Part shown: piece by piece, positions 39,033 through 64,000 of the stretch
How positions within the stretch are numbered: the stretch's first letter is position 1
Layout: every line of letters starts with the position of its first letter
Sequence record: PV806337.1
Reading direction: 5' to 3' (one strand)
Origin: a phage
DNA length: 64,000 nucleotides
Notes under the pieces: generated by a model
What the model was told of the DNA's origin: nothing
The model's input: the letters and a program-made list of their open reading frames with translations, nothing else
Databases searched by the model: none
Translations under genes and position numbers: made by a program

Positions 39033-39037
39033 TACCT

Positions 39038-39127: not shown

Positions 39128-39133
39128 TTACAT

Positions 39134-39210: not shown

Positions 39211-39225
39211 ACTTAAGGAAATAAG

Positions 39226-39393
39226 ATGTATAGACATCCACCTCCGCCAACACGTCGTTCTAGGGAAGTCATCCTTATGGAATTGACTAAAAACTTCAAG
39301 GCAACTCTTGAAGATAGAGATTTAGGCACGGATGAAGACATTGATTTTATTTGTAGACTATTAAAGATGAAACTGGAGAAACAACATGGCTAA
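39226..39393 (+). CDS. hypothetical small protein (55 aa)
   Basis: ATG 11 nt after RBS AAGGAA; stop overlaps next start (ATGGCTAA). Confidence 0.4.
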   Translation: MYRHPPPPTRRSREVILMELTKNFKATLEDRDLGTDEDIDFICRLLKMKLEKQHG

Positions 39394-39592
39394 TCCTGAA
39401 ATTACCGCACAACGTTTCATGCTTAAAGGCATGATTGCTGAAGCAGGTATGACTCAAGAGGTTGCAGACTTTCATAAGCAATTTCTTGATATTATAACTC
39501 TAGCTAAAGAGACTGGAGAAAGAGAACACGGTGCAGCAATTATGGCTATATCTCTTATTAGCCTAGACTTAGCTGAAGAATCTGGAATTTAG
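39386..39592 (+). CDS. hypothetical protein (68 aa)
   Basis: Track ORF. Confidence 0.5.
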   Translation: MANPEITAQRFMLKGMIAEAGMTQEVADFHKQFLDIITLAKETGEREHGAAIMAISLISLDLAEESGI

Positions 39593-39622
39593 CTCCTCCA
39601 AACAGAATTTTTAAAAATGTAC

Positions 39623-39652
39623 TTGCCTTTTGCTTTAAATTTCTGATATAAT
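39623..39652 (+). promoter_or_regulatory. T5-type promoter
   Basis: -35 TTGCCT, 18 bp, -10 TATAAT upstream of 39683. Confidence 0.6.
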
Positions 39653-39682
39653 AGTTATATAAATTGATGAAGGAGTTAACTA

Positions 39683-39958
39683 ATGCAAAATCGTGTTGTA
39701 GCAACTGGTATTGAAAGTGCAATCTGTAAATCCTGGGAAGGCTGGGAAGGTGAGATTGAATGGCTTTATTTCTATGATGTAGAACTTCTACCGGAAGTTA
39801 AAGCTAAATGTGTTGAAGCTGGCATGGCTCCAGATGCAAAAGCTGATATTGATATTTCAATGTCTGAACTTAAAGGTCGTGTAATTACTGTTAGTGATGA
39901 GGGCGAAGAAGTCTTCGAACTTCCATTCTCCTTAACTGTCACTCCTAAGTTCGACTAA
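39683..39958 (+). CDS. hypothetical protein (91 aa)
   Basis: Track ORF with promoter and RBS AAGGAG. Confidence 0.55.
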   Translation: MQNRVVATGIESAICKSWEGWEGEIEWLYFYDVELLPEVKAKCVEAGMAPDAKADIDISMSELKGRVITVSDEGEEVFELPFSLTVTPKFD

Positions 39959-39994
39959 CTAATACAGCATTGGGTAAGTTCTTTAAAATTTGAC

Positions 39995-40023
39995 TTGCTC
40001 AGTGCCTTAAAACTTGGTATAAT
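39995..40023 (+). promoter_or_regulatory. promoter for tRNA sub-cluster (Tyr, Glu, Trp)
   Basis: -35 TTGCTC (overlapping TTGACT), 17 bp, -10 TATAAT. Confidence 0.6.
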
Positions 40024-40039
40024 AGTTATCTAATTTGGA

Positions 40040-40089
40040 AACATATTTAAAAGTGTTTAAACTAGTATTTGAATACTTTTAAATATGTT
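40040..40089 (+). promoter_or_regulatory. 15-bp perfect inverted repeat in tRNA leader
   Basis: AACATATTTAAAAGT ... ACTTTTAAATATGTT separated by 20 nt; right arm ends 3 nt into tRNA-Tyr. Confidence 0.6.
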
Positions 40090-40177
40090 GGATTAGTATC
40101 GTAGAGGTAGCGAAGCAGACTGTAAATCTGCCGACTCGGAAGGGTCTCGGGTGGTTCGACTCCATCATCCAACACCA
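40087..40177 (+). tRNA. tRNA-Tyr (anticodon GTA), long variable arm
   Basis: Acceptor GTTGGAT/ATCCAAC, anticodon stem GCAGA/TCTGC with loop CTGTAAA, T-loop TTCGACT, CCA. Confidence 0.8.
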
Positions 40178-40184
40178 AATTTAA

Positions 40185-40261
40185 GTCCTGTTAGACAAAC
40201 TGGTAAAGTCACTACCCTTTCAAGGTAGGATTTGCGGGTTCGATCCCCGCACAGGACGCCA
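40185..40261 (+). tRNA. tRNA-Glu (anticodon TTC)
   Basis: Acceptor GTCCTGT/ACAGGAC, anticodon stem CTACC/GGTAG with loop CTTTCAA, T-arm GCGGG-TTCGATC-CCCGC, CCA. Confidence 0.8.
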
Positions 40262-40267
40262 TTTTCT

Positions 40268-40346
40268 GCATTCCTAGAGTGTTACTGGACAGCATGTCGG
40301 TCTCCAAAACCGTACGGTCTAGGTTCGAGTCCTAGTAGGTTTGCCA
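40268..40346 (+). tRNA. putative tRNA-Trp (anticodon CCA); acceptor and D stems poorly paired
   Basis: T-arm CTAGG-TTCGAGT-CCTAG then ...G-CCA; anticodon loop CTCCAAA; weak acceptor pairing, possible pseudogene. Confidence 0.45.
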
Positions 40347-40352
40347 AAATTT

Positions 40353-40427
40353 GCACCTTTAGCTGAGATGGATTAGCGCTTGCCTGAAGAGCTTGAGAGG
40401 TTGGATCGTTACCAACGGGGTGCTCCA
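40353..40427 (+). tRNA. tRNA-like, possibly Phe (anticodon GAA), non-canonical T-loop
   Basis: Acceptor GCACCTT/GGGGTGC, D-arm GCTG...TAGC, anticodon loop CTGAAGA with mismatched stem, T-arm GTTGG-ATCGTTA-CCAAC, CCA. Confidence 0.45.
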
Positions 40428-40444
40428 AATTGAAGGAGCTGCTG

Positions 40445-40717
40445 ATGCATCCTGAAAACTTCTTTATTTACTGCGCTGATAAGTCGCTGAAACGTAGAAT
40501 TAACAAAGTCTATCATTATAGTGCTAGTCAACAGCCTTATGTATACGCTTTTGACGGTGATCACATTCCACTAGAACAATTATCTTGTGATTACATGATA
40601 TTGAAGAACTTTGATGAGACGAAGATCTCGAGCGTTCACAATCGACAGAATCCATTAACGTGGAAATATAAGAAGAAAAAGAAAGGCATCAAATTCTTAA
40701 AAAATGTAGTTGCTTAG
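40445..40717 (+). CDS. hypothetical protein (90 aa)
   Basis: ATG 40445 with RBS GAAGGAG; track start 40430 is TTG. Confidence 0.5.
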   Translation: MHPENFFIYCADKSLKRRINKVYHYSASQQPYVYAFDGDHIPLEQLSCDYMILKNFDETKISSVHNRQNPLTWKYKKKKKGIKFLKNVVA

Positions 40718-40738
40718 TTTCCAAAAGTTCTGTATAAT
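40710..40738 (+). promoter_or_regulatory. T5-type promoter upstream of tRNA-Cys
   Basis: -35 TTGCTT, 17 bp, -10 TATAAT. Confidence 0.65.
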
Positions 40739-40786
40739 AATTACATAAATTGAACTGGAGAAGCAACATGACAGAACAAGATAAAC

Positions 40787-40862
40787 CGACCGTTGGCTGA
40801 ATGGCTTAGGCGAAGGATTGCAAATCCTTTTTATGTGAGTTCAAATCTCATGCGGTCGTCCA
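40787..40862 (+). tRNA. tRNA-Cys (anticodon GCA)
   Basis: Acceptor CGACCGT/GCGGTCG, anticodon stem AAGGA/TCCTT with loop TTGCAAA, T-loop TTCAAAT, CCA; promoter directly upstream. Confidence 0.8.
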
Positions 40863-40883
40863 AATTACTAAAGGAAAGAAGTA

Positions 40884-41402
40884 GTGCATACAAAAGTTTT
40901 TGATAGTTTGGTAAAGAAAGGCGTTGTTACTAACGAGCCCTTCTATATAACCGCAGAACTAATCCAGAGATTTATGGAAGAATATATAAATCTTTCAGGA
41001 ACCAATGGTAATACCAAAAAGAATACAAATACTATGTATTCGAGAAAACTTGCTGCACTTTCCTTTATAAAGTTTAAGCAGGAAAATAAACTTCCTATTT
41101 CTGAAGGTTTTGTATACTGTATTAGTAATCCTGCATGGAAAAATCAGTATAAAATAGGTATGAGTCAAAATCCAAAAGAGAGATTAGCTCAATATCAGAC
41201 TTATTCCCCTTATAGGGATTATAAGTTAGAGCATTGGTCTTTTTGGTTTGACAAACGAAAAGGTGAAAAACTAATTCACCAGTATTTCAAAGATTTAAAA
41301 GAACATGAGTGGTTTAGTATAAATTCTAGGGATCTTAGTAAATATCTAGAACGTATTAACTCTAGTTCTGACTTATATGGTTCCTTAGCTCTAATTGGTT
41401 AG
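40884..41402 (+). CDS. T5orf172/GIY-YIG-like domain protein
   Basis: GFVYCISNPAWKNQYKIGMSQNPKERL...EWF; GTG start with RBS AAGGAAAG; last 24 nt overlap a tRNA 5' end. Confidence 0.6.
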   Translation: MHTKVFDSLVKKGVVTNEPFYITAELIQRFMEEYINLSGTNGNTKKNTNTMYSRKLAALSFIKFKQENKLPISEGFVYCISNPAWKNQYKIGMSQNPKERLAQYQTYSPYRDYKLEHWSFWFDKRKGEKLIHQYFKDLKEHEWFSINSRDLSKYLERINSSSDLYGSLALIG

Positions 41403-41456
41403 AGCGGCATCTTGTTAAGTTGAGGGTTGCTGGTTCGAATCCTGCAGGAACCGCCA
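41379..41456 (+). tRNA. tRNA, probable Asn (anticodon GTT)
   Basis: Perfect acceptor GGTTCCT/AGGAACC, D-arm GCTC...GAGC, loop TTGTTAA, T-loop TTCGAAT, CCA; 5' end overlaps CDS 40884-41402. Confidence 0.6.
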
Positions 41457-41558
41457 AATTCTGTGTAGAGTTAAGTAAACCGGTAGCCAACCAGCTATCA
41501 TTGCTGACATCGAATTCAGCCATAGATACCATTTTCGTTAATAACTGAGGAAACAAGC

Positions 41559-41744
41559 ATGTCCAAGAATGTAATTGCGCAGCTAGAAGTTCATCGTGAT
41601 AGCACTATCAACAATATTGAAGTTGAGAAGAAATACATAGAAGAACTTAAACATGATATACTGGTAAGTCTCAACCGTCTTAATGTACGAAAAGAGTTTC
41701 TTAAAGAACTTAATGCAGCTATTGAAAAACTCAAAGCTGAGTAA
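41559..41744 (+). CDS. hypothetical protein (61 aa), coiled coil
   Basis: Track ORF with RBS GAGGAAA. Confidence 0.5.
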   Translation: MSKNVIAQLEVHRDSTINNIEVEKKYIEELKHDILVSLNRLNVRKEFLKELNAAIEKLKAE

Positions 41745-41753
41745 ATGAATTAT

Positions 41754-41830
41754 GCGACCGGGGCTGGCTTGGTAATGGTACTCCCCTGTCACGGGAGAGA
41801 ATGTGGGTTCAAATCCCATCGGTCGCGCCA
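41754..41830 (+). tRNA. tRNA-Asp (anticodon GTC)
   Basis: Acceptor GCGACCG/CGGTCGC, anticodon stem CTCCC/GGGAG with loop CTGTCAC, T-loop TTCAAAT, CCA. Confidence 0.8.
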
Positions 41831-41847
41831 AATAAGGTAGGTTAGCT

Positions 41848-42006
41848 ATGGAACGTAGGGAGTTTACTCCAGAAGAGATAGAGCAGATAAAAGAATCTGC
41901 TATGAAAAATGCTAGAATATCTCTGTCACTGGAAGGTATCATTATTAGTGATGTAAACTTTGAAAAAATCAAAGCCATAGCTGATGAACTGGAAAAAGTA
42001 ATTTAA
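41848..42006 (+). CDS. hypothetical small protein (52 aa)
   Basis: Not in track; ATG after RBS AAGG. Confidence 0.35.
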   Translation: MERREFTPEEIEQIKESAMKNARISLSLEGIIISDVNFEKIKAIADELEKVI

Positions 42007-42007
42007 T

Positions 42008-42083
42008 ACATCCATAGCTCAATGGTTAGAGCTACCGCCTCTTAAGCGGAGGGTTCTAGGTTCAAGTCCTAGTGGGTGTACCA
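42008..42083 (+). tRNA. tRNA-Lys (anticodon CTT)
   Basis: Acceptor ACATCCA/TGGGTGT, D-arm GCTC..GAGC, loop CTCTTAA, T-arm CTAGG-TTCAAGT-CCTAG, CCA. Confidence 0.65.
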
Positions 42084-42109
42084 AATTAAACTAGCACGAG
42101 AAATATGCT

Positions 42110-42457
42110 ATGATTAATGCTAAAGAAGAATTGTTACTTGCCCTAAAGAATACTAATTCTGAAGTTAAGTGTATTAAGATAGAATTCGGTTATTATGGGG
42201 ATAAAGAAGTTTGGGTATTACCCGTAGGTTATACAGAAAAAGATATTGAAGATTTTCTAGATAATCTAGACTTTAAATATGATTCTGGTTTCGGCGGACA
42301 ATTGCTTTATGGTAACGTATGGTTTACCGATGGAACTTGGTTAGAACGTGGTGAATATGATGGTTCTGAATGGTGGGAATATAAGACTACACCAGCAATC
42401 CCAGAAGAATGCCGAACAATTAATGGTGAAGTAGATCGTACTTTACTATTAAATTAA
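42110..42457 (+). CDS. hypothetical protein (115 aa)
   Basis: Track ORF. Confidence 0.55.
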   Translation: MINAKEELLLALKNTNSEVKCIKIEFGYYGDKEVWVLPVGYTEKDIEDFLDNLDFKYDSGFGGQLLYGNVWFTDGTWLERGEYDGSEWWEYKTTPAIPEECRTINGEVDRTLLLN

Positions 42458-42579
42458 CAAAATTTCAGTGCAGAACACGGAGCTAGCAATTCGGAAGTGC
42501 TGACTCATGATAAGCTGCCTATGTACTTGCGAAGCGGTCGTGTCCAAGACTCGGACTCTTGCACTGAAAACAATCAAAC

Positions 42580-42700
42580 ATTCTAGCGTGGTTGATGGGG
42601 AAACCAGCTTGGCGAGGGCAGAAGCTCGTTCGATTCGAGTGAAAGAATGGTTCTCGTAAGTCCGCACAAGTGATAACAGGTTCGAGTCCTGTCTAGAATG
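42580..42700 (+). ncRNA. tRNA-like element about 121 nt, tRNA ends with expanded internal region
   Basis: Perfect 7-bp acceptor ATTCTAG/CTAGAAT, D-arm-like TGGTT-GATGGGGA-AACCA, 3' T-arm ACAGG-TTCGAGT-CCTGT, internal second T-arm-like CTCG-TTCGATT-CGAG; no CCA. Confidence 0.4.
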
Positions 42701-42711
42701 ACACTATAAAG

Positions 42712-42833
42712 TTTACTTATTATGTAGGTTCCGATAGACCGGCGGGTCTATTCTGGCATTTAAGAGAGGTCTCGCAAACTTCTTTGTCAGCCGTGGGGTT
42801 GGTAGCCTCCAGGTGGCCTACACAATAAGTAAA
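42712..42833 (+). ncRNA. structured non-coding element closed by a 17-bp long-range stem
   Basis: TTTACTTATTATGTAGG pairs with CCTACACAATAAGTAAA 105 nt downstream (16/17); internal hairpins AGACC-GGCG-GGTCT; no ORF. Confidence 0.4.
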
Positions 42834-42849
42834 TTTATTAAAAATTCAT

Positions 42850-42878
42850 TTGCTATTCTGCTTTATTATCTGTATAAT
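42850..42878 (+). promoter_or_regulatory. T5-type promoter
   Basis: -35 TTGCTA, 17 bp, -10 TATAAT upstream of small membrane ORF 42911. Confidence 0.7.
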
Positions 42879-42910
42879 ATATTTTATAAAGTGAAGAGAA
42901 GGAAAGCAAA

Positions 42911-43069
42911 ATGAAACACAAGATAGCTCAAGTTTTTATGGCATTATGGTGTATACCAATAGCTATAACAGCATTTAATCTAGATACTTTTACTATAGAA
43001 GAAAAATGTATCGGATTAGTTAGCGGTTTTATTATGCTGGGCTTATCTTTGCTGTGGTTAAAGAACTAA
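42911..43069 (+). CDS. small membrane protein (52 aa)
   Basis: Promoter and RBS GAAGAGAAGGAAAG; two hydrophobic segments. Confidence 0.4.
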   Translation: MKHKIAQVFMALWCIPIAITAFNLDTFTIEEKCIGLVSGFIMLGLSLLWLKN

Positions 43070-43073
43070 TATT

Positions 43074-43151
43074 CTCCGTGTAGCTCAGTTTGGCCAGAGC
43101 GTTTCGTTTGGGGCGATAGGGTCGGGGGTTCAAATCCTCCCACGGAGACCA
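43074..43151 (+). tRNA. tRNA-Pro (anticodon TGG)
   Basis: Acceptor CTCCGTG/CACGGAG, D-arm GCTCAGTTTGGCCAGAGC, loop TTTGGGG, T-loop TTCAAAT, CCA. Confidence 0.7.
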
Positions 43152-43157
43152 AACAAT

Positions 43158-43235
43158 TGCGGGTTAGATCTCTGGTAGAGATCGCTAGTCTCATAAGCTA
43201 GAAAGAGGTAGGTTCGATTCCTGCACCCGCTTCCA
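43158..43235 (+). tRNA. tRNA with CAT anticodon (Met/fMet/Ile2)
   Basis: Anticodon stem CTAGT/GCTAG with loop CTCATAA, T-loop TTCGATT, CCA end. Confidence 0.65.
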
Positions 43236-43255
43236 CTTTAATAGAGGATTTCGAA

Positions 43256-43423
43256 ATGAAAGTATTTCGATTAGTAGTAAGTGACAAACGTTTAGGTAAG
43301 AATACCTCAAAATCCTTACTTGCTCATTATGGAAAAGATGAGAAAGAAGTAATGGCGGAGTTTGGGATTAATCACCCTTACTTGAAAGTTCACTCTATTA
43401 AAGAAGTATATAATGGTTACTAA
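43256..43423 (+). CDS. hypothetical small protein (55 aa)
   Basis: ATG after RBS AGAGGA between two tRNAs. Confidence 0.4.
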   Translation: MKVFRLVVSDKRLGKNTSKSLLAHYGKDEKEVMAEFGINHPYLKVHSIKEVYNGY

Positions 43424-43424
43424 T

Positions 43425-43503
43425 AGATCGCTAGCTCAATAGGTTTAGTAGCATCCGACTTTTAATCGGAAGGTTCTGGGTTCGAGTCCCAGGCGATCTA
43501 CCA
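43425..43503 (+). tRNA. tRNA-Lys (anticodon TTT)
   Basis: Acceptor AGATCGC/GCGATCT, anticodon stem TCCGA/TCGGA with loop CTTTTAA, T-arm CTGGG-TTCGAGT-CCCAG, CCA. Confidence 0.8.
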
Positions 43504-43521
43504 ATTTCAAGAAAAACGCAG

Positions 43522-43550
43522 TTGCTTGATGCTTAATTTCTTGTTATAAT
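43522..43550 (+). promoter_or_regulatory. T5-type promoter driving a structured leader and tRNAs
   Basis: -35 TTGCTT, 17 bp, -10 TATAAT; followed by GAAA-tetraloop hairpin 43564-43583. Confidence 0.65.
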
Positions 43551-43563
43551 ATTTATATAAATT

Positions 43564-43583
43564 GATGAGGAGAAATCCTCATC
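43564..43583 (+). other. GAAA-tetraloop hairpin at 5' end of a promoter-driven transcript
   Basis: GATGAGGA-GAAA-TCCTCATC, about 14 nt downstream of -10 TATAAT. Confidence 0.5.
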
Positions 43584-43787
43584 ATAGTTCACTAAGGTAT
43601 TAGCTCGACCTAGGACTGGCTACCAAAAAGCACGATCCCTACGATTTGGAGAAGTTCTAGATTAGTCCACTAGATTCAGCGGCAACTGAATAGTGTATTG
43701 GGTTTGCGAGATGACGCAGTTCCTTCCGCTCGAAGCGAAGGTGCTGTAGTTACGCCGAGCTAATAGCCTTAGTAAACTAAAGAATTT

Positions 43788-43866
43788 GGGGGATGGGTCT
43801 GCTAGGGGTGGACACCTCACTTGCACCGAGGACATCAGAACGATTCGAATTCGTTATCCTCCACCA
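43788..43866 (+). tRNA. tRNA, probable Ala (anticodon TGC)
   Basis: Acceptor GGGGGAT/ATCCTCC, D-arm GTCT...GGAC, loop CTTGCAC, T-arm AACGA-TTCGAAT-TCGTT, CCA. Confidence 0.6.
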
Positions 43867-43871
43867 AATAC

Positions 43872-43948
43872 GCGTGATTGATGGAATTGGCATACATACC
43901 GTCCTTAGAAGTCGGGTTTTGAGGGTTCGAATCCCTTGTCACGCACCA
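43872..43948 (+). tRNA. tRNA, probable anticodon TAG (Leu), short variable arm
   Basis: Acceptor GCGTGAT/GTCACGC, loop CTTAGAA, T-arm GAGGG-TTCGAAT-CCCTT, CCA. Confidence 0.55.
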
Positions 43949-44073
43949 AATTTGATGGTCAGAGTAAATTAAACCTACTATCTCGGTTGAGCTGTTTTAA
44001 TGGGTTCGAATCCCAGCGAGGCGTAACTGCCTGGTGTGATAGAGGCATCATTCCACTAACATTGGAAAAACTA

Positions 44074-44304
44074 ATGAAACGAAAATTAAAAAAGTCTTAT
44101 ATAATTAAGATAAATAAGCTACGAAGTAGGGCAAAAGGATGGCCACTTCGAATATTAATTGCGGATAACCATACTAGATACCATGCGGAACAACGTCATT
44201 ACAAACAGTGGGAGTCATACTGCCGCTCAAAAGCAGGTCGTTTAGATGGATCTTATGAGTTTCTATTTGGTAAGAAGCCTACTAGAGTAGCTTTAGGTAA
44301 TTAA
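44074..44304 (+). CDS. hypothetical small basic protein (76 aa)
   Basis: Internal ATG of track ORF 43936..44304, whose N-terminus overlaps a tRNA; weak RBS. Confidence 0.3.
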   Translation: MKRKLKKSYIIKINKLRSRAKGWPLRILIADNHTRYHAEQRHYKQWESYCRSKAGRLDGSYEFLFGKKPTRVALGN

Positions 44305-44309
44305 TACTT

Positions 44310-44400
44310 GGAAGAGCAAATCGAATTGGCGACGAAAACCGCTTGGAAAGTGGCTGACTGGTAAAACGGCTTGAGAGTTCAAATCTCTCCTCTTCCGCCA
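44310..44400 (+). tRNA. tRNA-Ser-like (probable anticodon GGA), long variable arm
   Basis: Acceptor GGAAGAG/CTCTTCC, T-arm GAGAG-TTCAAAT-CTCTC, CCA; candidate loop TTGGAAA. Confidence 0.55.
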
Positions 44401-44412
44401 AACAATTTATAT

Positions 44413-44507
44413 GGTAGGTCAATCCAATGGCTGGCGTGGGACTCCGACTTGAAATCGGTTGATCGTAGTGATACGGTGTAAGGGTTCGATCCCCTTACCT
44501 ACCTCCA
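44413..44507 (+). tRNA. tRNA-Ser-like (probable anticodon TGA), long variable arm
   Basis: Acceptor GGTAGGT/ACCTACC, anticodon hairpin CCGA-CTTGAAA-TCGG, extra arm CGTA-GTGA-TACG, T-arm AAGGG-TTCGATC-CCCTT, CCA. Confidence 0.6.
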
Positions 44508-44512
44508 AATCT

Positions 44513-44644
44513 TGAAGTATGCCGGAATCGGTAGACGGGGCTGCCTAAAAGGTTTATAGGGAACATCCACTCCCTGCAACATACCTCATAAAGCGGCTGA
44601 GATAAATGGTCTATCTCGTGAAGGTTCAAGTCCTTCTGCTTCTT
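44513..44644 (+). ncRNA. tRNA-Leu-like element about 130 nt with extra internal sequence
   Basis: 5' TGAAGTA-TG-CCG-GAATCGGTAGA-CGG resembles type II Leu D-arm; 3' T-arm GAAGG-TTCAAGT-CCTTC; acceptor 6/7 pairs; extra hairpin GAGATA/TATCTC. Confidence 0.35.
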
Positions 44645-44873
44645 GATATATCTATGGCTCAAAGTGTAACGGTGCTATTTGATGCTCTTAGTAAGACTTT
44701 CCCGACATGCGTTCGGGAGTAAGCTGCTAAGGCTAGAGTAGAAGAGTTTCGGAGAGCCGCCACAATTGAAAATTCGTACTCGTCTTGAGCTGCGCGCAAT
44801 AGGAGATAACTTGATTAGTATTCTAGAACATGCTAATTGAGGATGGTTTCGCTAACCCTGCGAGTTTTCAATT

Positions 44874-44950
44874 GTGGCTATATCATAATTGGTTAATGAT
44901 CCTGATTGTGAATCAGGCCTATGTGGATTCGAATTCCACTAGCCACCCCA
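44874..44950 (+). tRNA. tRNA-His (anticodon GTG)
   Basis: Acceptor GTGGCTA/TAGCCAC, anticodon stem CCTGA/TCAGG with loop TTGTGAA, T-arm GTGGA-TTCGAAT-TCCAC, CCA. Confidence 0.8.
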
Positions 44951-44975
44951 AATTAACTTAAACAGGAAATAAAAT

Positions 44976-45170
44976 ATGGCTGATTTCTGCAAACAATGCT
45001 CCATTGATATGTGGGGCAGAGATACTGGTGATCTTTCTGGTTTGATTACAGAAGCTGAAGTTAAAGAAGGCTACGGTGCAGTTGTAGTTTGCGAAGGCTG
45101 TGGAGTTATTCGAGTAGATCATGAAGGCAAACGTTTAGAAGAACCTGGGCCAACTACTCTAATTCCATAG
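44976..45170 (+). CDS. hypothetical Cys-containing protein (64 aa)
   Basis: Track ORF with RBS AGGAAA; CxxC...CxxC. Confidence 0.5.
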   Translation: MADFCKQCSIDMWGRDTGDLSGLITEAEVKEGYGAVVVCEGCGVIRVDHEGKRLEEPGPTTLIP

Positions 45171-45182
45171 AGTAATAATTAT

Positions 45183-45258
45183 TGGGATGTAGATCAATTG
45201 GCAGATCGTCGGCCTCTGACTCCGAAGGTTCCACGTTCGATCCGTGGCATCCCAGCCA
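45183..45258 (+). tRNA. tRNA-Gln (anticodon CTG)
   Basis: Acceptor TGGGATG/CATCCCA, D-arm GATC..GATC, loop CTCTGAC, T-arm CCACG-TTCGATC-CGTGG, CCA. Confidence 0.7.
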
Positions 45259-45264
45259 AACAAT

Positions 45265-45340
45265 TGGAGAGTAGTGTAACGGTTAGCACAACGGCCTTTG
45301 ACTCCGTTAATGGTAGGTTCGATTCCTCCTTCTCCAGCCA
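45265..45340 (+). tRNA. tRNA-Gln (anticodon TTG)
   Basis: Acceptor TGGAGAG/TTCTCCA, loop CTTTGAC (paralogous to previous tRNA), T-loop TTCGATT, CCA. Confidence 0.7.
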
Positions 45341-45348
45341 AATAATAA

Positions 45349-45424
45349 GCGGTTAAGCACACGGGTTGTGTCGCAGGCCTTCCAAGCCTCGCTGAGTAGG
45401 GTTCGATTCCCTCTAGCCGCTCCA
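45349..45424 (+). tRNA. tRNA-Gly (anticodon TCC)
   Basis: Acceptor GCGGTTA/TAGCCGC, anticodon stem AGGC/GCCT with loop CTTCCAA, T-loop TTCGATT, CCA. Confidence 0.7.
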
Positions 45425-45440
45425 ACTTTAAGGAAATGTT

Positions 45441-45662
45441 ATGCACGTTTTTGAGTTTCGTAATAAAAATACTGATAAGCGAGTTATCATTATTGGAGAA
45501 ACATACCGAGCATATGAACAAACTGACGGCTCTGTTATCTTGAATGATGAGAAAGGAGGTTTTAGCTTTTATCCAGAAGAACCTTATGAAGAGTTTCGTA
45601 CTAAGTTTCTTTTACCAGACTGGCTAGCAGTAGCTGAGCAACGAGAATCCGAAGATGGCTGA
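45441..45662 (+). CDS. hypothetical protein (73 aa)
   Basis: Track ORF with RBS AAGGAAA. Confidence 0.55.
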   Translation: MHVFEFRNKNTDKRVIIIGETYRAYEQTDGSVILNDEKGGFSFYPEEPYEEFRTKFLLPDWLAVAEQRESEDG

Positions 45663-45819
45663 TAACCTAAAATTAAGGGTCGACAAACAAAAGAAATACA
45701 TTGAGGTTGAATTAGGCGAAGAACGCTTAAAGCTAACTTTCGAGTTTCTTCAGCAGTTGGCAATGACAGTTATGACTGATAAGTCTCCTGTTATTGAAAA
45801 AGAAATCCCGTTGAAATAA
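45655..45819 (+). CDS. hypothetical small protein (54 aa)
   Basis: ATG overlapping previous stop (ATGGCTGA); not in track. Confidence 0.35.
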   Translation: MADNLKLRVDKQKKYIEVELGEERLKLTFEFLQQLAMTVMTDKSPVIEKEIPLK

Positions 45820-45827
45820 CGGGTTCT

Positions 45828-45902
45828 GCTCCTAAAGCATTGCTGGCGATGCAGTTGCCTTGTAAGCATCTGAACCGGGTTCGATTCCTGGTGGGAGCAC
45901 CA
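45828..45902 (+). tRNA. tRNA-Thr (anticodon TGT)
   Basis: Acceptor GCTCCTA/TGGGAGC, D-arm GCAT..ATGC, loop CTTGTAA, T-arm CCGGG-TTCGATT-CCTGG, CCA. Confidence 0.7.
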
Positions 45903-45917
45903 AATTTAAAAATTCAT

Positions 45918-45946
45918 TTGCCTTCTCTCTTATTTCTTGTTATAAT
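45918..45946 (+). promoter_or_regulatory. T5-type promoter
   Basis: -35 TTGCCT, 17 bp, -10 TATAAT upstream of 45977. Confidence 0.7.
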
Positions 45947-45976
45947 ATTTATATAAATTAATGAGAGGGAAACCAA

Positions 45977-46270
45977 ATGAAACGTTATCTTTCTGTAGTA
46001 TTTCAAACTGGTGGTCAAAGATATACCTATGAATTTCCTAACTCTTGGAAAATCAAAGAAGGTGATCAAGTTGTTGTGTTAACACCACGTGAAGGATATA
46101 AAGTAGTAACTGTTAAACAAGTATTCCCAAAAGATCATGAACCAGCTAAAGGCATTTGCTATAAGATGATTCATGGTGTAGTTCGTCAAGTACCACGAGC
46201 GGAAGTCGAAATCAAAATAGATAAAGATGGTAAACTTAAATACACCTCCTGCTTAGACGAGTTGCTATAA
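45977..46270 (+). CDS. hypothetical protein (97 aa)
   Basis: Track ORF with promoter and RBS GAGAGGGAAA. Confidence 0.55.
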   Translation: MKRYLSVVFQTGGQRYTYEFPNSWKIKEGDQVVVLTPREGYKVVTVKQVFPKDHEPAKGICYKMIHGVVRQVPRAEVEIKIDKDGKLKYTSCLDELL

Positions 46271-46476
46271 TGAGGATTACTTTTACAGAAAAGATCATGA
46301 GTAATGGTGTTATGATCATTACCGCATGGGATGGTAATCAGTGGTGTAGTGTTTCAGGTATTAAACCTGAAGAACAAACACTAGAAAATATCTCAAAGAT
46401 TAAGCGAAGAATGGCAGAACGTGCACGACTTCCAGGTGCACCCAGAAATGGCAAACGTTCTGCAACTAAATGTTAA
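46270..46476 (+). CDS. hypothetical protein (68 aa)
   Basis: Track ORF overlapping previous stop. Confidence 0.5.
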   Translation: MRITFTEKIMSNGVMIITAWDGNQWCSVSGIKPEEQTLENISKIKRRMAERARLPGAPRNGKRSATKC

Positions 46477-46477
46477 T

Positions 46478-46554
46478 GCTTCGGTAGCTTAGCGATCTAA
46501 AGCACTCGGCTGATAACCGAGAGATCGGGGGTTTAAATCCCTCCCGGAGTACCA
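46478..46554 (+). tRNA. tRNA-Ile (anticodon GAT)
   Basis: Acceptor GCTTCGG/CCGGAGT, anticodon stem CTCGG/CCGAG with loop CTGATAA, T-loop TTTAAAT, CCA. Confidence 0.75.
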
Positions 46555-46650
46555 AATTTAGGAATTAAGACTATGCGTCCAGGAAAGTTTAAAAAAGCTA
46601 ATTGGTCTAAAGAGTATAAAGAATACTTACTTAGTCTAATAAAACATAAT

Positions 46651-46726
46651 AGTTAGTTGGCAGAGTGGTTATGCACCTCCTTCATACGGAGCGATTACAG
46701 TGGTTCAAATCCACTACTAACTACCA
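46651..46726 (+). tRNA. tRNA with CAT anticodon (Met/fMet/Ile2)
   Basis: Acceptor AGTTAGT/ACTAACT, anticodon stem CTCC/GGAG with loop TTCATAC, T-arm AGTGG-TTCAAAT-CCACT, CCA. Confidence 0.7.
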
Positions 46727-61088: not shown

Positions 61089-61273
61089 TGGAAACTCTTT
61101 TTCTTTTAATGCTCGTAGGTTCTCTGTTACTAATACTAGCACTTCTACTAATCTGCAATATTCTTAATAATAAGAATCTAGAGCTAAAGTGTGAGAACCA
61201 AATCCTTAACCGTGAACTTAAACAATATAATCTAGCAGCCTATAAACTGTTAGACAAACTGGAGAATAAATAA
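61088..61273 (+). CDS. small membrane protein (61 aa)
   Basis: TM LFLLMLVGSLLLILALLLI; overlaps neighbours. Confidence 0.4.
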   Translation: METLFLLMLVGSLLLILALLLICNILNNKNLELKCENQILNRELKQYNLAAYKLLDKLENK

Positions 61274-61875
61274 TGACTTTTAATGCGCAACAATCTATTC
61301 AAGTAGTGCCAGATCATGAACTGAACACATGGGATTATAGCTTTAAAGATTTAACCGCTACTGTACAATTTAAATCTATGAAGCTAACATTTGCACACAC
61401 TGACCTTAGAGCATGTAAAGGTCTTGAGGATAAGCTCGAAGATGCTCGCAAGATTTTTGGTAAGGCTCGCATCCCAGCTGATAATCTAATTAACGCATTA
61501 ATCGATGCAGGGTACAAACTTGTGAAGACTGAGGTGAACCGCCCTAGTACTCCAGTGACTATTAGAGATCCGTGGCAGTCAGGGACAATCGCAATGCTGA
61601 ATAAATCATCGGATTTGCACAATGTTCCTTGTGGGGGTGTGATAAGTAGTACGCAGTCATATAAGTTTGGGGAAGATTACGGCCCTTCTGTACAGTTGAA
61701 ACATACTCAAGAAGCTTTTGAATCTGATATGCGAAGCGTAGCACCTGCGGATGCTGAAGGTTTTAGAAGTCCCATCTATGTTACTCACTTTAATAATCTT
61801 AGGCCTGGGAGTATAAATGATGCTATCCTTGAAGCGTTGGGAGCTGCTATTAATGAAGATAAGAGGGGTAATTAA
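61273..61875 (+). CDS. hypothetical protein (200 aa)
   Basis: Track ORF. Confidence 0.55.
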   Translation: MTFNAQQSIQVVPDHELNTWDYSFKDLTATVQFKSMKLTFAHTDLRACKGLEDKLEDARKIFGKARIPADNLINALIDAGYKLVKTEVNRPSTPVTIRDPWQSGTIAMLNKSSDLHNVPCGGVISSTQSYKFGEDYGPSVQLKHTQEAFESDMRSVAPADAEGFRSPIYVTHFNNLRPGSINDAILEALGAAINEDKRGN

Positions 61876-62600
61876 TGAGTATAAAAAAGAATTTAGCAGA
61901 GATTATTAAGTTAGCTAGAGCTTGTAATGGAAAATGTGTTTCTCAGCTTAATGAACTAGAAGCACATGCAGTAGCATTTTGTGCAGAGTTTTATCCTGCA
62001 TACCTTAATGCTAGTGGGCAACCTAAATATAATAAGGATGCCGAAGAAGTTACGTTAGCTCCTTCATATATTAGCTTGCGTCGTTTAATTCAAACCGTTG
62101 ATCCTACTATTAAAGGATTCTCAGCAGATTCATTCCACGTCTTTGCAGATAAAGAACTCCCGTATTTTAAAGAAGGAAATGCAAAGTCATGTTTAGAATG
62201 TTATCCTAATATACTGATGATTCCTCAAAAGCAATGTAAATACGATCATCTTCCTAGACTTACAAAGAAAGTAGCACCACCTTATTCTTCTCTATCTGAA
62301 TTAAAGCTAGGAATTGTATCTACACTTGCGCAGATTCATCTAAGTATAGTTGACGACTCAACAACATCTAACCCTATTCTAGATGCTGCTCACTTTGAAA
62401 TTTTACGTGATCCTGAACAAGCTAGAAAAGTTGCTAAGTCTGTTAAGTTTGATATATCAACAATTCTTGACACTAAACAAGAAACTAGACCTAGAGGAAG
62501 TGTAGATTATTCTGCGCTAAATTCCGAGTCATCTTACTTAGCAACATTCCTTTTCATGGCGTCAAAAGGGGTTATTCTAAAGGTTAATAAAGATGGATGA
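61875..62600 (+). CDS. hypothetical protein (241 aa)
   Basis: Track ORF. Confidence 0.55.
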   Translation: MSIKKNLAEIIKLARACNGKCVSQLNELEAHAVAFCAEFYPAYLNASGQPKYNKDAEEVTLAPSYISLRRLIQTVDPTIKGFSADSFHVFADKELPYFKEGNAKSCLECYPNILMIPQKQCKYDHLPRLTKKVAPPYSSLSELKLGIVSTLAQIHLSIVDDSTTSNPILDAAHFEILRDPEQARKVAKSVKFDISTILDTKQETRPRGSVDYSALNSESSYLATFLFMASKGVILKVNKDG

Positions 62601-63321
62601 TTTACGTGCTGAAATTAATAAAAAGTTACGAGAGGAAGCCCGGAGGTTTCCTCTTAAAAACTTTTTGAAGTCAAATGGCTCTACTAATATAACGAAGATT
62701 AGGCAACTTCACCCTGACTTCCAACAAGAGGCCTTAAACCTTATCTTTATTAGGAAAGCTTTAAAAGTCCAGAAAGAAGAGTATGGGTATGAAAGAGTTA
62801 ATTATAAGACAGCCAATCAGTTAGTAGAGATATGGTGCTATAAACATAAAGGATACTTTATGCAAACTGCTAGATCTCACCTAGATGGGCACGGTTGTTT
62901 ACAATGTGCTAGGGAAAGCAACCTAAATACACCTATCGAGAAACCGGAGGTAGAAGAAGATGTTCAGTCCCCCACATATCTCTATATCTTCTCTAATAAA
63001 GATCAGTCTAGGAAGAAATTAAAGACAAAGATTGGGGTTTCTAGAGAGCCACATCAAAGGTTTAAGAATCTAGAGTATGATAAATTGCGTGTGCCGGGTT
63101 TTGAAGATATGGAAGTATTTGGTATCTACCAGTATAAGAAAGGATCGAAAGAACTCGCTTACAAAATAGAACACCAAGCACATAAATTTTTCGAGAATAA
63201 ATTTGCTAACCATTATAAATTCGATGGAGCAAAAGAGATATTCAACATTAAAGCTGTAGAGGCAGAAGAATATCTATTAAGTCAAGGTTGCATAAAAATT
63301 TACCCAACTCCAAACTCATGA
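62593..63321 (+). CDS. zinc-ribbon plus T5orf172/GIY-YIG-like domain protein
   Basis: N-terminal CYKHKGYF...GHGCLQCAR; C-terminal YLYIFSNKDQ...KIGVSREPHQR...GAKEIF, same family as 20750-21421 and 40884-41402. Confidence 0.6.
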   Translation: MDDLRAEINKKLREEARRFPLKNFLKSNGSTNITKIRQLHPDFQQEALNLIFIRKALKVQKEEYGYERVNYKTANQLVEIWCYKHKGYFMQTARSHLDGHGCLQCARESNLNTPIEKPEVEEDVQSPTYLYIFSNKDQSRKKLKTKIGVSREPHQRFKNLEYDKLRVPGFEDMEVFGIYQYKKGSKELAYKIEHQAHKFFENKFANHYKFDGAKEIFNIKAVEAEEYLLSQGCIKIYPTPNS

Positions 63322-63348
63322 CAAAAATTTAAAAGTAACGAAATCTGC

Positions 63349-63378
63349 TTGACATTCGTGAGAATAATGTGTTATAAT
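63349..63378 (+). promoter_or_regulatory. sigma70 consensus promoter facing the repeat region
   Basis: -35 TTGACA, 18 bp, -10 TATAAT; no ORF downstream within window. Confidence 0.6.
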
Positions 63379-63699
63379 AATCTCATAGATTAAAAACATC
63401 AACTTGTTTTTACCTCTAGGCCGTAGATTTACATCATTCCTCGTAGGAAAACACTTGATGACGGTTCTGCTCGCAGGTTCTCGTCAATTGTTCTTCCACA
63501 CCGAGACTTAGGAGGATGTATCAAATCGCACGCGCCTAGAGGGGCTAACTCTCATGAAATGGGGGTATATTTACTTTTAAATAACTAAAAAATATTTAAA
63601 GGCAATATCTGTGTTCAAGATGATACACCTGTTGCCGCTCTCCATCTCTAGGATCACATACACTTTCCTAGAAACTCCAGAGTTCTCACTAAATACTCA

Positions 63700-63950
63700 C
63701 GAAATATCACACTTCTAGTGGGCGGTTCTCCTAAGTTTCTAGGAACATATACTAGGCGGTTAATATAGGGCGGTTAATATAGGGCGGTTATTTCTAGGAG
63801 ACATTTTTCCAAAACACATTTCCAGAAATTACTATCGGATTTGCACATTGTGTTTCTAGAAATTTATGGTCGGATTTGCACAAACGCCTAAGTTTTTAGG
63901 AACTCTTACTCCCCTGAAAATGGCAGCATTATTTCGGGCCGAAGGCCCAT
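63700..63950. repeat. iteron-like direct repeats and repeated motifs in non-coding region
   Basis: Three tandem copies of about 14 bp (TAGGCGGTTAATA, TAGGGCGGTTAATA, TAGGGCGGTTATTT); GGGCGGTT 4 times; CTAAGTTTCTAGGAAC twice; TCGGATTTGCACA twice; hairpin GGGCCGAAGGCCC. Confidence 0.6.
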
Positions 63951-64000
63951 AATTGCCTGAGTTTTTAGAGCCACAGAAATTTTCACTTGTCAAGCTATTT

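What the first reader, a model, noticed from the sequence alone, without database searches (positions are those of the whole stretch)
63349..64000. Repeat-rich non-coding region with iteron-like tandem repeats beside a consensus promoter
After the last ORF, at least 600 bp contain no convincing ORF but include three tandem about 14-bp repeats (TAGGGCGGTTAATA), a fourth GGGCGGTT copy, two copies each of CTAAGTTTCTAGGAAC and TCGGATTTGCACA, and a GC hairpin. By position relative to the early genes this may correspond to the boundary with the terminal repeat, where T5-like phages place injection-stop, nick-site or origin-like signals.
Basis: partly seen in the sequence, partly recalled or inferred. 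Interest (0 to 1): 0.55.

Follow-up and report, generated by a model that had tools for sequence, protein, structure and literature searches.

The report
T5-type genome-end junction plus unannotated RNA
This stretch is the conserved, repeat-studded DNA that abuts the long terminal repeat of a T5-like phage (the genome-end cut site lies at 63967|63968), a zone already described in T5, but its left third turns out to be a previously unannotated gene for a highly structured ~195-nt RNA that exists in at least ten interchangeable sequence versions.

Summary
The window is a T5-like phage read opposite to the T5 standard map.

**Terminal-repeat boundary.** Four phages with mapped termini place it at window 63967|63968, 19 nt past the GC hairpin. 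Almost all of the finding is therefore unique DNA just outside the repeat.

**Right part (about 63614-64000).** This is the homologue of the outer edge of T5 "Repeat Region 3": a GGCGGTT tandem array, CTAG palindromes, two of about nine same-strand DRD repeats, and the hairpin. It is nearly invariant in the 28 aligned relatives and detected in 446 phage records. It lies outside the annotated injection-stop signal. It holds no consensus DnaA box and no nick consensus. I found no support for an origin.

**Left part (63349-63582).** This is a self-contained unit: a 12/12 sigma-70 promoter, then a 5' hairpin, a rod of about 130 nt, and a terminator hairpin. Ten unalignable sequence types all fold this way (z -3.2 to -7.2; the sense strand was better in all eight types tested on both strands). 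Compensatory changes are present. There is no Rfam match and no annotation in any record examined.

**Function (inferred).** The repeats plus hairpin most likely form a genome-end formation platform. The RNA's role is unknown.

The parts
63349..63378 (+). Sigma-70 promoter: -35 TTGACA (63349-63354), 18-nt spacer, extended -10 TGtTATAAT (63370-63378)
   Evidence: 12/12 consensus match. At least 11/12 in 22 of 26 relatives; the other four keep TGTTATAAT with -35 TTGCAT. Present, though unannotated, in T5 (TTGACA-17-TATCAT), phiR2-01 and a Sugarlandvirus.
63385..63582 (+). Candidate structured small RNA of about 195 nt. 5' hairpin 63391-63398/63405-63412; rod 63413-63542; terminator-like hairpin 63548-63566; U-rich tail to about 63582
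   Evidence: MFE -64.2 kcal/mol, z -5.85 sense against -2.89 antisense. The same three-part fold appears in 10 unalignable sequence types, z -3.2 to -7.2. Compensatory pairs are present. Terminator-like site. No Rfam hit. No conserved ORF.
63567..63612 (.). AT-rich spacer (15% G+C) between the RNA unit and the conserved block
   Evidence: Composition; partial conservation.
63614..63640 (+). Invariant 27-bp block TTCAAGATGATACACCTGTTGCCGCTC, function unknown
   Evidence: At most 3 mismatches in 25 of 28 relatives and identical in T5. Not an ORF start: T5 has a stop after 9 codons.
63665..63674 (.). CTAG near-palindrome TTCCTAGAAA, forming a 12-nt perfect inverted repeat with 63734-63745
   Evidence: (I5).
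63720..63727 (+). Isolated GGGCGGTT copy
63730..63746 (+). CCTAAGTTTCTAGGAAC, copy 1; contains CTAG palindrome 63736-63745
   Evidence: (D1).
63751..63792 (+). Tandem 14-bp array with core GGCGGTT at 63755, 63769 and 63783
   Evidence: TRF period 14, 2.6 copies, 100% matches. Copy number is 1-5 among relatives with a 14-15 bp period. T5 has 3 copies at 10398-10428.
63835..63847 (+). DRD repeat TCGGATTTGCACA, first of the two copies outside the repeat in the window's reading direction
   Evidence: Homologous to T5 DRD at 10340, one of nine same-strand copies between 9752 and 10477. Invariant in the alignment.
63853..63862 (.). Palindrome TTTCTAGAAA between the two DRD copies
63870..63882 (+). 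DRD repeat TCGGATTTGCACA, second copy outside the repeat, 35 bp after the first
63887..63903 (+). CCTAAGTTTTTAGGAAC, copy 2
   Evidence: (D1); T5 10284.
63936..63948 (.). Hairpin or dyad GGGCC-GAA-GGCCC, 19 nt from the repeat boundary
   Evidence: Exact in 27 of 27 relatives that reach it, and in Sw2, BF23 and phiR2-01. Replaced by a different hairpin (CACGGTG-TGT-CACCGTG) at the equivalent place in a Sugarlandvirus.
63949..63967 (.). Conserved spacer ATAATTGCCTGAGTTTTTA ending at the cut site
63968..64000 (.). First 33 bp of the terminal repeat. It equals T5's physical right genome end read inward, and continues beyond the window
   Evidence: T5's right end maps here. The boundary is identical in four phages. 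This stretch is the only part still alignable in the Sugarlandvirus.

Best explanation
The finding is the unique-sequence flank of the phage's roughly 10-kb terminal repeat. The boundary is at 63967|63968. The region contains two distinct things.

(1) 63349-63582 is a self-contained small-RNA gene. A consensus host sigma-70 promoter, of the type T5 uses for early genes, starts an RNA of about 195 nt. The RNA folds into a 5' hairpin, a long rod of about 130 nt, and a terminator hairpin with a U-rich tail. The fold is shown by computation. Expression is inferred.

(2) About 63614-64000 is the outer part of the conserved protein-binding array known in T5 as Repeat Region 3. In order it holds an invariant 27-bp block, CTAG palindromes, a GGCGGTT tandem array, two of the roughly nine same-strand DRD sites that straddle the boundary, and a small hairpin or dyad 19 nt from the position where the virion DNA ends.

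My inference for part (2): the DRD clusters on both sides, together with the hairpin, assemble a nucleoprotein complex. The likely proteins are the small terminase or another phage DNA-binding protein. The complex positions the terminase cut that creates the right genome end. That end should be packaged first, because the left end is ejected first.

The region is not a replication origin. It is not the injection-stop signal proper, and it is not a nick site.
For: **Identity and position**
- 94.8% identity to T5 10436-10187.
- T5's physical end maps to window 63968.
- Identical boundary in T5, Sw2, BF23 and phiR2-01.

**Constraint**
- 63760-64000 is nearly invariant in 28 relatives whose neighbouring protein is only 52-90% identical.
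- The block is present in 446 phage records.

**Layout**
- The order GGCGGTT array, DRD x2, hairpin, +32 bp boundary, further DRD copies is conserved in all relatives and in T5.
- A Sugarlandvirus keeps this order with a different hairpin sequence at the same distance from TTTTTA|GAGCCACAG. The hairpin is therefore kept as a structure or dyad rather than as a sequence.
- The cut-proximal 39 bp are the only part still alignable in that genus.

**RNA unit**
- Promoter scores 12/12 and is conserved.
- z is -5.85 sense and -2.89 antisense.
- Ten unrelated sequence types share one fold, and the sense strand was better in all eight types tested on both strands.
- Double-compensated pairs occur in the 5' hairpin and in the rod. 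Covariation scores exceed 500 of 500 shuffles, and the slid controls stay lower (at most one third to 40% of the observed score).
- In type F the 3' hairpin is a textbook intrinsic terminator.
Against: - No experiment here or in the literature I could read assigns a function to these repeats. Davison states this explicitly.
- None of the motifs occurs at the other repeat boundary (T5 about 111,532 or position 1). They cannot be a general 'both ends' terminase signal.
- The packaging direction is inferred only from the last-in-first-out rule.
- Covariation rests on few independent events (3-4 pairs per alignment). The terminator is weak in the window's own type.
- No transcript data were examined.
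- The DRD core matches a relaxed DnaA box at 8 of 9 positions. That fits Davison's DnaA-based injection model as well as mine.
Confidence: 0.6

Rival explanations
1. Injection control. The repeats are part of the machinery that halts or restarts DNA entry in two-step transfer. They would be bound by pre-early A1/A2 or by host DnaA at the membrane. Alternatively, they would be sensed at the portal or tail while the first 8% of the genome is inside the cell.
For: - The region continues the repeat zone that contains the annotated iss.
- The DRD array runs from the 7.9% nick outward.
- The DRD core ATTTGCACA matches the relaxed DnaA box at 8 of 9 positions (my reading against the consensus).
- From my own knowledge of tail length, several hundred bp beyond the shear point would lie in the tail or at the portal during the pause. 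That reaches this region.
Against: - The finding lies about 490-1200 bp on the not-yet-injected side of the shear point (T5 about 9698 in NC_005859 numbering). It is outside the annotated iss.
- It has no consensus DnaA box.
- The paired DnaA boxes, IRD'-spacer-IRC' and the DRE repeats that Davison proposes as iss all lie inside the repeat.
- From memory, in-vitro ejection is reported to go to completion without the cell. That argues against a capsid-intrinsic stop.
Confidence: 0.2
2. The rod is not a functional RNA. It would be a DNA-level long imperfect palindrome, or simply a strong structure-plus-terminator 'insulator'. An insulator would stop early-gene read-through from entering the terminal repeat antisense to the pre-early genes, or would stabilise upstream mRNA 3' ends.
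For: - It sits directly after the last early gene, on the same strand.
- The antisense strand also folds better than shuffles (z -2 to -6), as any inverted repeat would.
- No transcript evidence is available.
Against: - A conserved consensus promoter sits immediately upstream, with the 5' hairpin starting about 7 nt after the predicted start. An insulator needs no promoter of its own.
- The sense strand was more stable in all eight types tested on both strands.
- Discrete types are conserved at 92-99% across phages whose neighbouring gene has diverged to 61-77%. That indicates sequence-level constraint beyond mere self-complementarity.
Confidence: 0.12
3. Replication origin. The tandem GGCGGTT repeats would act as iterons. 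The AT-rich 63567-63612 stretch would be the unwinding element. The promoter-driven G-run-containing RNA would act as a primer or R-loop.
For: - The combination is present: promoter, structured RNA ending in GGGGG, a 46-bp stretch at 15% G+C, then direct repeats.
- From memory, this resembles promoter-dependent origins of T7, T4 and ColE1.
Against: - The repeats have a 14-bp period and a 7-8-bp core, not 17-22-bp iterons in helical phase.
- No DnaA box is present.
- The adjacent ORFs have no initiator domain. The last one is a T5orf172/MUG113-domain protein.
- Electron-microscopy mapping places T5 origins near the genome centre (as cited).
- GGCGGTT copy number drops to 1 in phiR2-01.
Confidence: 0.07
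4. Ordinary intergenic DNA with chance repeats.
For: None beyond the absence of direct functional data.
Against: - Motif enrichment is far beyond shuffles.
- The non-coding DNA is nearly invariant across 28 or more relatives and present in 446 records.
- The architecture is kept across genera.
Confidence: 0.01

Closest known systems
T5 'Repeat Region 3' at the inner end of the left terminal repeat (Heusterspreute 1987; Wang 2005; Davison 2015 and bioRxiv 10.1101/866236). In NC_005859 numbering this is about 9274-10489.
   Same: Direct homology: window 63753-64000 equals T5 10436-10187 at 94.8%. It has the same DRD repeats, GGCGGTT copies, hairpin and boundary. As in T5, it 'overruns' about 270 bp into unique DNA.
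   Different: The window holds only the outer, unique-side edge. IRD'-spacer-IRC', the DnaA boxes, the DRE repeats, the 7.9% nick and six DRD copies lie inside the repeat beyond the window end. The tandem array here is more regular (14-bp period, 4 copies) than in T5 (15-16 bp, 3 copies). The RNA slot (T5 about 10650-10860) lies outside Repeat Region 3 and is not described there.
Terminase recognition and cleavage sites: lambda cos (cosN plus R-site repeats), SPP1 pac (pacL/pacC/pacR boxes), and the T7 concatemer-junction/pacB region with promoter and hairpin. All are recalled from general knowledge.
   Same: Short repeated protein-binding motifs flank a precisely positioned end-forming cut. 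As at the T7 right end, a promoter points at the junction and a small hairpin lies nearby.
   Different: No binding or cleavage data exist for T5-like phages. The repeat is 10 kb rather than 160 bp. The motifs are absent from the other repeat boundary. T5 uses host RNA polymerase.
T5 'stable RNAs with unknown functions' (RNAI, RNAIII, RNAIV, RNA1, RNA2, RNA2H, RNA3, RNAX) annotated in the tRNA cluster of NC_005859.
   Same: These are phage-encoded, non-coding, stable-looking RNAs driven by host-type promoters in the early region, with function unknown.
   Different: The junction RNA lies 20 kb away at the repeat boundary. It is unannotated and shares no sequence with them. Its shape is different: a single long rod, against their tRNA-like or multibranched folds. 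It also exists as discrete interchangeable types.
phi29 packaging RNA (pRNA) and 6S RNA, both recalled from general knowledge.
   Same: The size is about 170-200 nt. The secondary structure is kept while the sequence diverges strongly. For pRNA, the gene sits next to a genome end and is transcribed from an early promoter. For 6S, the shape is rod-like.
   Different: There is no Rfam match to either. There is no large central bubble as in 6S. T5 packages with a terminase and is not known to need RNA. Any link to packaging is speculation.

Membership tests
T5 terminal-repeat junction repeats (Repeat Region 3) | Sequence homology to T5 DNA spanning the inner end of the left terminal repeat | tested here: met
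   Window 63753-64000 against T5 10436-10187: 94.8%. 446 T5-like records match.
T5 terminal-repeat junction repeats (Repeat Region 3) | Same-strand DRD repeats (TCGGATTYGCACA) straddling the repeat end | tested here: met
   Two copies in the window at 63835 and 63870. Four to seven more lie just inside the repeat in relatives. T5 has nine copies between 9752 and 10477. The inner copies of this phage itself lie beyond the window.
T5 terminal-repeat junction repeats (Repeat Region 3) | Abuts the physical end of the terminal repeat | tested here: met
   T5's right end maps to 63968. The junction is the same in Sw2, BF23 and phiR2-01. This holds by homology only; the termini of this phage were not mapped.
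Injection stop signal proper (iss) | Lies within the first-step-transfer DNA, left of the 7.9% shear point | tested here: not met
   Annotated iss is T5 9140-10149. The window ends at T5 10187, so the whole finding is on the second-step side.
Injection stop signal proper (iss) | IRD'-spacer-IRC' with paired DnaA boxes (TTWTNCACA) and DRE repeats | tested here: not met
   No consensus DnaA box in 63349-64000. The 8 in the window match the chance expectation of 7.6. These elements lie at T5 about 9400-9700.
Injection stop signal proper (iss) | Cis-acting arrest of DNA entry | not testable with these tools
   Needs infection experiments.
T5 site-specific nick | Consensus 5'-N-Pu^pGCGC-N on the nicked strand, which is the window plus strand | tested here: not met
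   No [AG]GCGC on the plus strand in 63300-64000. The only GCGC (63532) is preceded by C. The consensus comes from the T5 record.
Iteron-type replication origin | Three or more direct repeats of about 17-22 bp, phased, bound by a cognate initiator encoded nearby | tested here: not met
   The period is 14 bp and the core 7-8 bp. Neighbouring ORFs carry no initiator domain; the last is T5orf172/MUG113.
Iteron-type replication origin | Adjacent AT-rich unwinding element and DnaA boxes | tested here: inconclusive
   A 46-bp stretch at 15% G+C lies about 140 bp upstream of the array, but there are no DnaA boxes. T5 origins are reported near the genome centre.
Terminase recognition/cleavage site (pac/cos type) | Coincides with the position where mature DNA ends | tested here: met
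   by homology to four phages with determined termini.
Terminase recognition/cleavage site (pac/cos type) | Specific binding by small terminase and cutting by large terminase | not testable with these tools
   Needs biochemistry.
Small non-coding RNA gene (promoter to intrinsic terminator) | Recognisable promoter and terminator bracketing a region without a conserved ORF | tested here: met
   Promoter 12/12 and conserved. Terminator-like hairpin plus U-run, strong in type F and weak in the window's type. No shared ORF across types.
Small non-coding RNA gene (promoter to intrinsic terminator) | Structure more stable than shuffled sequence, strand-specific, and supported by covariation | tested here: met
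   z -3.2 to -7.2 in ten types, and the sense strand was better in all eight types tested on both strands. Compensatory pairs occur, with covariation scores above 500 of 500 shuffles. Independent events are few.
Small non-coding RNA gene (promoter to intrinsic terminator) | A transcript of that size is made | not testable with these tools
   Public RNA-seq exists (PRJEB101990) but could not be mapped here.
6S RNA / any Rfam family | Match to a curated covariance model | tested here: not met
   No hit at E <= 1 at the RNA slot in the window or in five loci carrying types B, C, E, F and H.

The most novel reading that the evidence does not exclude
The promoter-to-terminator unit at 63349-63582 encodes a previously undescribed family of phage RNAs. 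The family exists as at least ten discrete, horizontally exchanged sequence 'alleles' that share one shape: a 5' hairpin, a rod of about 130 nt, and a terminator. Its invariable position next to the genome-end cut site, together with this allelic pattern, suggests a type-specific role. One possibility is a role in end formation or packaging, comparable to the phi29 packaging RNA or to transcription-coupled maturation in T7. Another is a role as a determinant in competition between co-infecting phages or against host defence.
Probability: 0.15. Interest if true: 0.8.

Novelty: new member of a known kind. Interest (0 to 1): 0.5.

Why it matters
The repeat zone itself is a known, long-unexplained feature of T5, a classical model phage. 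How T5 stops and restarts DNA entry, and how it makes its 10-kb terminal repeats, are still open questions.

This analysis adds four things:
- The terminal-repeat boundary is fixed to the nucleotide in this window.
- The outer repeats lie outside the injection-stop signal. They flank the end-forming cut symmetrically with the inner ones.
- The small hairpin next to the cut is conserved as a structure across genera.
- A strongly structured RNA gene with interchangeable sequence types sits at this junction. It is unannotated in every record examined and absent from Rfam.

All four points give concrete, cheap targets for mutagenesis in T5. If the RNA is real, it adds a new non-coding player to a phage studied for 70 years.

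Tried and rejected
- **Rfam.** Sensitive thresholds on the window and on five loci carrying other RNA types gave nothing at the RNA slot.
- **One alignment across all RNA types.** I used per-type folds and within-group alignments instead.
- **Host mimicry.** No similarity to 5,426 E. coli genomes.
- **Antisense target or second copy in the window.** Only chance-level 12-mers. T5-type RNA occurs once per genome.
- **Consensus DnaA boxes.** None in the finding.
- **Nick consensus.** None in the finding.
- **Same motifs at the other repeat boundary.** Absent, apart from one chance-level GGCGGTT 36 bp from T5's left end.
- **Minus-strand 45-aa ORF annotated in DaisyDussoix.** Rejected as a gene.
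- **Resemblance to T5's annotated stable RNAs.** None.
- **Literature.** No paper on a T5 non-coding RNA at this site. Davison 2015 and the preprint's supplements were not available. I therefore could not map the published names 'DRA' and 'palI/J' onto individual motifs.
- **Extra sequence diversity.** The IMG/VR and metagenome scans added few new lineages.
Full report
**What the window is.** The last 700 bases match 439 phage records, all T5-like Demerecviridae. The closest is E. coli phage NG_A1 at about 99%. The plus strand of the window runs opposite to the standard T5 map. The tRNA cluster and early genes read rightward. The last ORF ends at 63321. In the relative DaisyDussoix a 1.7-kb gene-poor gap follows, and then leftward-facing pre-early genes.

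**Checking the observation.**
- The promoter is a 12/12 match: TTGACA, 18 nt, then TGtTATAAT (63349-63378).
- TRF finds a perfect 14-bp array at 63755-63790. A fourth GGGCGGTT lies at 63720.
- The two TCGGATTTGCACA copies are at 63835 and 63870.
- The two CCTAAGTTTYTAGGAAC copies are at 63730 and 63887.
- The hairpin GGGCC-GAA-GGCCC is at 63936-63948.

These motifs are concentrated far beyond chance.
- Three of the four GGGCGGTT copies in the 64-kb window lie here.
- Three of the four TTYCTAGRAA copies lie here.
- All three exact copies of the 13-mer lie in the last 2.4 kb, on one strand.
- No credible ORF exists. The 45-aa minus-strand ORF that one relative annotates starts with TTG, straddles the repeat boundary, is frame-broken in three relatives, and changes non-conservatively.

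**Where the terminal repeat begins.**
- The T5 record annotates the left terminal repeat as 1-10219, an injection stop signal at 9140-10149, and a major nick at 9748/9749.
- Window 63753-64000 aligns to T5 10436-10187 at 94.8%.
- The last bases of the T5 genome (...TTCTGTGGCTC) are the reverse complement of window 63968 onward.
- T5, Sw2 and BF23 (both by PhageTerm) and phiR2-01 all place the boundary at the same point: GGGCCGAAGGCCC-N8-CCTGAGTTTTT(A/G) | GA(G/T)CCACA.
- By homology, the boundary in the window is therefore 63967|63968. All but 33 bases of the finding are unique DNA just outside the repeat.
- In T5 numbering the finding corresponds to about 10187-10900. That is outside the annotated iss and about 440 bp from the nick.
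- Davison's preprint uses coordinates 80 lower (repeat end 10139). His 'Repeat Region 3' of 9194-10409 therefore equals 9274-10489 in this numbering. [quoted passage not shown] That overrun is the right half of the finding.

**The repeat zone (about 63614-64000).** I fetched 28 relatives by anchoring on the T5.019-like gene.
- All keep the same order: a GGCGGTT array (2-5 copies, 14-15 bp period), two DRD copies 35 bp apart, the hairpin, the boundary 32 bp later, and then four to seven more DRD copies inside the repeat.
- The hairpin is exact in every relative whose contig reaches it.
- T5 has nine same-strand DRD copies between 9752 and 10477, six inside and three outside the repeat. They leave a 330-bp DRD-free gap that holds the boundary and the hairpin.
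- An anchored alignment shows 63760-64000 is almost invariant, although the neighbouring protein is only 52-90% identical. This is strong selection on non-coding DNA.
- A 27-bp block (63614-63640) is also invariant and remains unexplained.
- A Klebsiella Sugarlandvirus matches only the 39 bases across the boundary by BLAST. Read by eye, however, it keeps the whole layout: promoter, long inverted-repeat slot, GGGCGGTT x2, DRD x3, then a different hairpin (CACGGTG-TGT-CACCGTG) 17 nt before TTTTTA|GAGCCACAG. The hairpin is therefore conserved as a structure or dyad next to the cut, not as a sequence.

**What the repeat zone is not.**
- It has no consensus DnaA box. The DRD core is an 8-of-9 match to the relaxed consensus.
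- It has no nick consensus. The three annotated T5 nicks share GTAAT-N28-RA^GCGCAGGG, and the finding has no purine-GCGC on the nicked strand.
- The 14-bp repeats do not look like iterons. No initiator gene is adjacent; the last ORF carries a T5orf172/MUG113 domain. T5 origins have been mapped near the genome centre.
- None of the motifs occurs at the other repeat boundary.

**The unexpected part: an RNA unit (63349-63582).** I printed the 300 bases upstream of the invariant block for all relatives.
- The promoter is conserved: at least 11/12 in 22 of 26 relatives, and the rest keep TGTTATAAT.
- The following 170-205 nt fall into sequence types that cannot be aligned with one another.
- Independent minimum-energy folds of every type still give the same architecture: a 5' hairpin, a single rod of about 130 nt closed by a long-range helix, and a 3' hairpin followed by U's. 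In type F the 3' hairpin is a textbook intrinsic terminator.

Stability and strand preference:
- The window's version has an MFE of -64.2 kcal/mol. Its z-score is -5.85 on the promoter-sense strand and -2.89 on the antisense strand.
- Across ten types, including phiR2-01 and the Sugarlandvirus, z ranges from -3.2 to -7.2. The sense strand was better in all eight types tested on both strands.

Covariation where sequences can be aligned:
- Three pairs of the 5' hairpin change on both sides (A-U to C-G, C-G to U-A, A-U to U-A).
- Within the T5 type, three rod pairs are double-compensated and three more change G-U style. Only 3 of 432 cells are unpaired.
- Covariation scores exceed all 500 shuffles, and the slid controls stay lower (at most one third to 40% of the observed score).
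- The number of independent events is small, so this is supportive rather than conclusive.

Other properties of the RNA:
- There is no Rfam match at the RNA slot for the six types scanned.
- It has no similarity to E. coli genomes.
- It has no antisense target or second copy.
- It has no resemblance to the stable RNAs that the T5 record annotates in the tRNA cluster.
- None of the annotated records I opened (T5 NC_005859, BF23, Sw2, phiR2-01, DaisyDussoix, NG_A1, vB_Kpn_3), nor AY692264 in the hit table, carries an RNA annotation here.
- Literature searches found no report.

The types behave as discrete exchangeable alleles.
- Phages sharing a type have RNAs 92-99% identical, even when the gene 2 kb away encodes a protein only 61-77% identical.
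- Phages with up to 98% identical neighbouring proteins can carry different types.
- The T5 type occurs in 144 records, always at 90% identity or more.

**Most likely mechanism.** Shown here: the position at the repeat boundary, the conservation, the motif layout and the RNA fold.

Inferred:
- The DRD clusters on either side of the cut, the GGCGGTT and CTAG sites, and the hairpin form a protein-binding platform.
- The platform positions the terminase cut that makes the right genome end.
- Because the left end of T5 DNA leaves the capsid first, the right end should be packaged first. This would then be the packaging start.
- The arrangement resembles lambda cos, SPP1 pac and the T7 concatemer junction, which also has a promoter and a hairpin. 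Those resemblances come from memory and are leads, not tests.

A role in the pause or restart of DNA entry remains a serious rival. The region continues the iss repeat zone, and nothing is known experimentally. The RNA's function is unknown. Its constant position next to the cut site and its allelic pattern are the main clues.

**Verdict.** The origin, nick and injection-stop readings are not supported for these coordinates. The repeat zone is an already described feature of T5-like phages. The structured RNA unit is, as far as I can tell, undescribed.

Noticed in passing
window 61609-61621 (inside ORF 61273-61875, the T5.019 homologue): An extra DRD copy (TCGGATTTGCACA) lies inside a coding sequence. 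About half of 29 relatives have TCGGATATGCACA instead, the variant also seen in the Sugarlandvirus. The six codons TCG GAT (T/A)TG CAC AAT GTT show no synonymous variation in 29 sequences, against a gene-wide mean of 0.81. T5 has the same copy at 12153. This suggests an overlapping DNA-level constraint: an outlying DRD site 2.3 kb from the boundary.
   Followed up: partly
window 63614-63640: A 27-bp block, TTCAAGATGATACACCTGTTGCCGCTC, is invariant across nearly all relatives and identical in T5. It is not an ORF start and not promoter-like. It is only loosely recognisable in the Sugarlandvirus. No explanation.
   Followed up: partly
L003 4249-4300 (T5 9748-9800); L091 1337 and 18747 (T5 22336 and 39746): T5's 7.9% nick lies 3 nt after the innermost DRD (TCGGATTTGCACAAAA^GCGCAGGG). 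The three annotated nicks share a longer context than the published consensus: GTAAT about 28 nt upstream, then RA^GCGCAGGG. The 18.5% nick is preceded by AGTTTCTAGGAGA, the CTAG motif that recurs in the finding (for example 63790-63800, TTTCTAGGAGA).
   Followed up: partly
window 62593-63321 and 61875-62600: The gene content between the T5.019 homologue and the junction varies. This phage has two ORFs of 241-242 aa where T5 has T5.018. The last one carries a T5orf172/MUG113 (GIY-YIG-related) domain, and some relatives annotate an endonuclease here. This looks like a hotspot for mobile nuclease-like genes next to the RNA cassette.
   Followed up: partly
L003 about 4480-4700, minus strand (T5 about 9980-10200), just inside the repeat and beyond the window end: A tract of about 200 bp with strong strand asymmetry (C/T-rich and almost G-free on the window's plus strand) lies between the boundary and the inner DRD cluster. 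A similar C-rich tract occurs in the Sugarlandvirus, between GGCGGTT and DRD (L090 about 1190-1380).
   Followed up: no
window 63685-63710: A second small tandem repeat, CTCACGAAATA x 2.5 (TRF score 38), lies in a poorly conserved stretch. It is probably insignificant.
   Followed up: no
window 34846-46726: 21 tRNA genes lie on the plus strand, the T5-type tRNA cluster. The T5 record also annotates eight 'stable RNAs with unknown functions' in the homologous region. I did not look for them in this window.
   Followed up: no
L033 36-42 (T5 left end): A single GGCGGTT, in the same orientation as the junction array, lies 36 bp from T5's left terminus. One 7-mer is at chance level, but the position is suggestive. 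Its conservation was not checked.
   Followed up: no
phage database hits H13/H36 (OR847759, 'Listeria phage LM 4-11-1', 1,724 bp) and similar short unannotated records: Short records labelled as Listeria phage match this T5-like junction at 91-95% identity. They are probably mislabelled or contaminant sequences.
   Followed up: no
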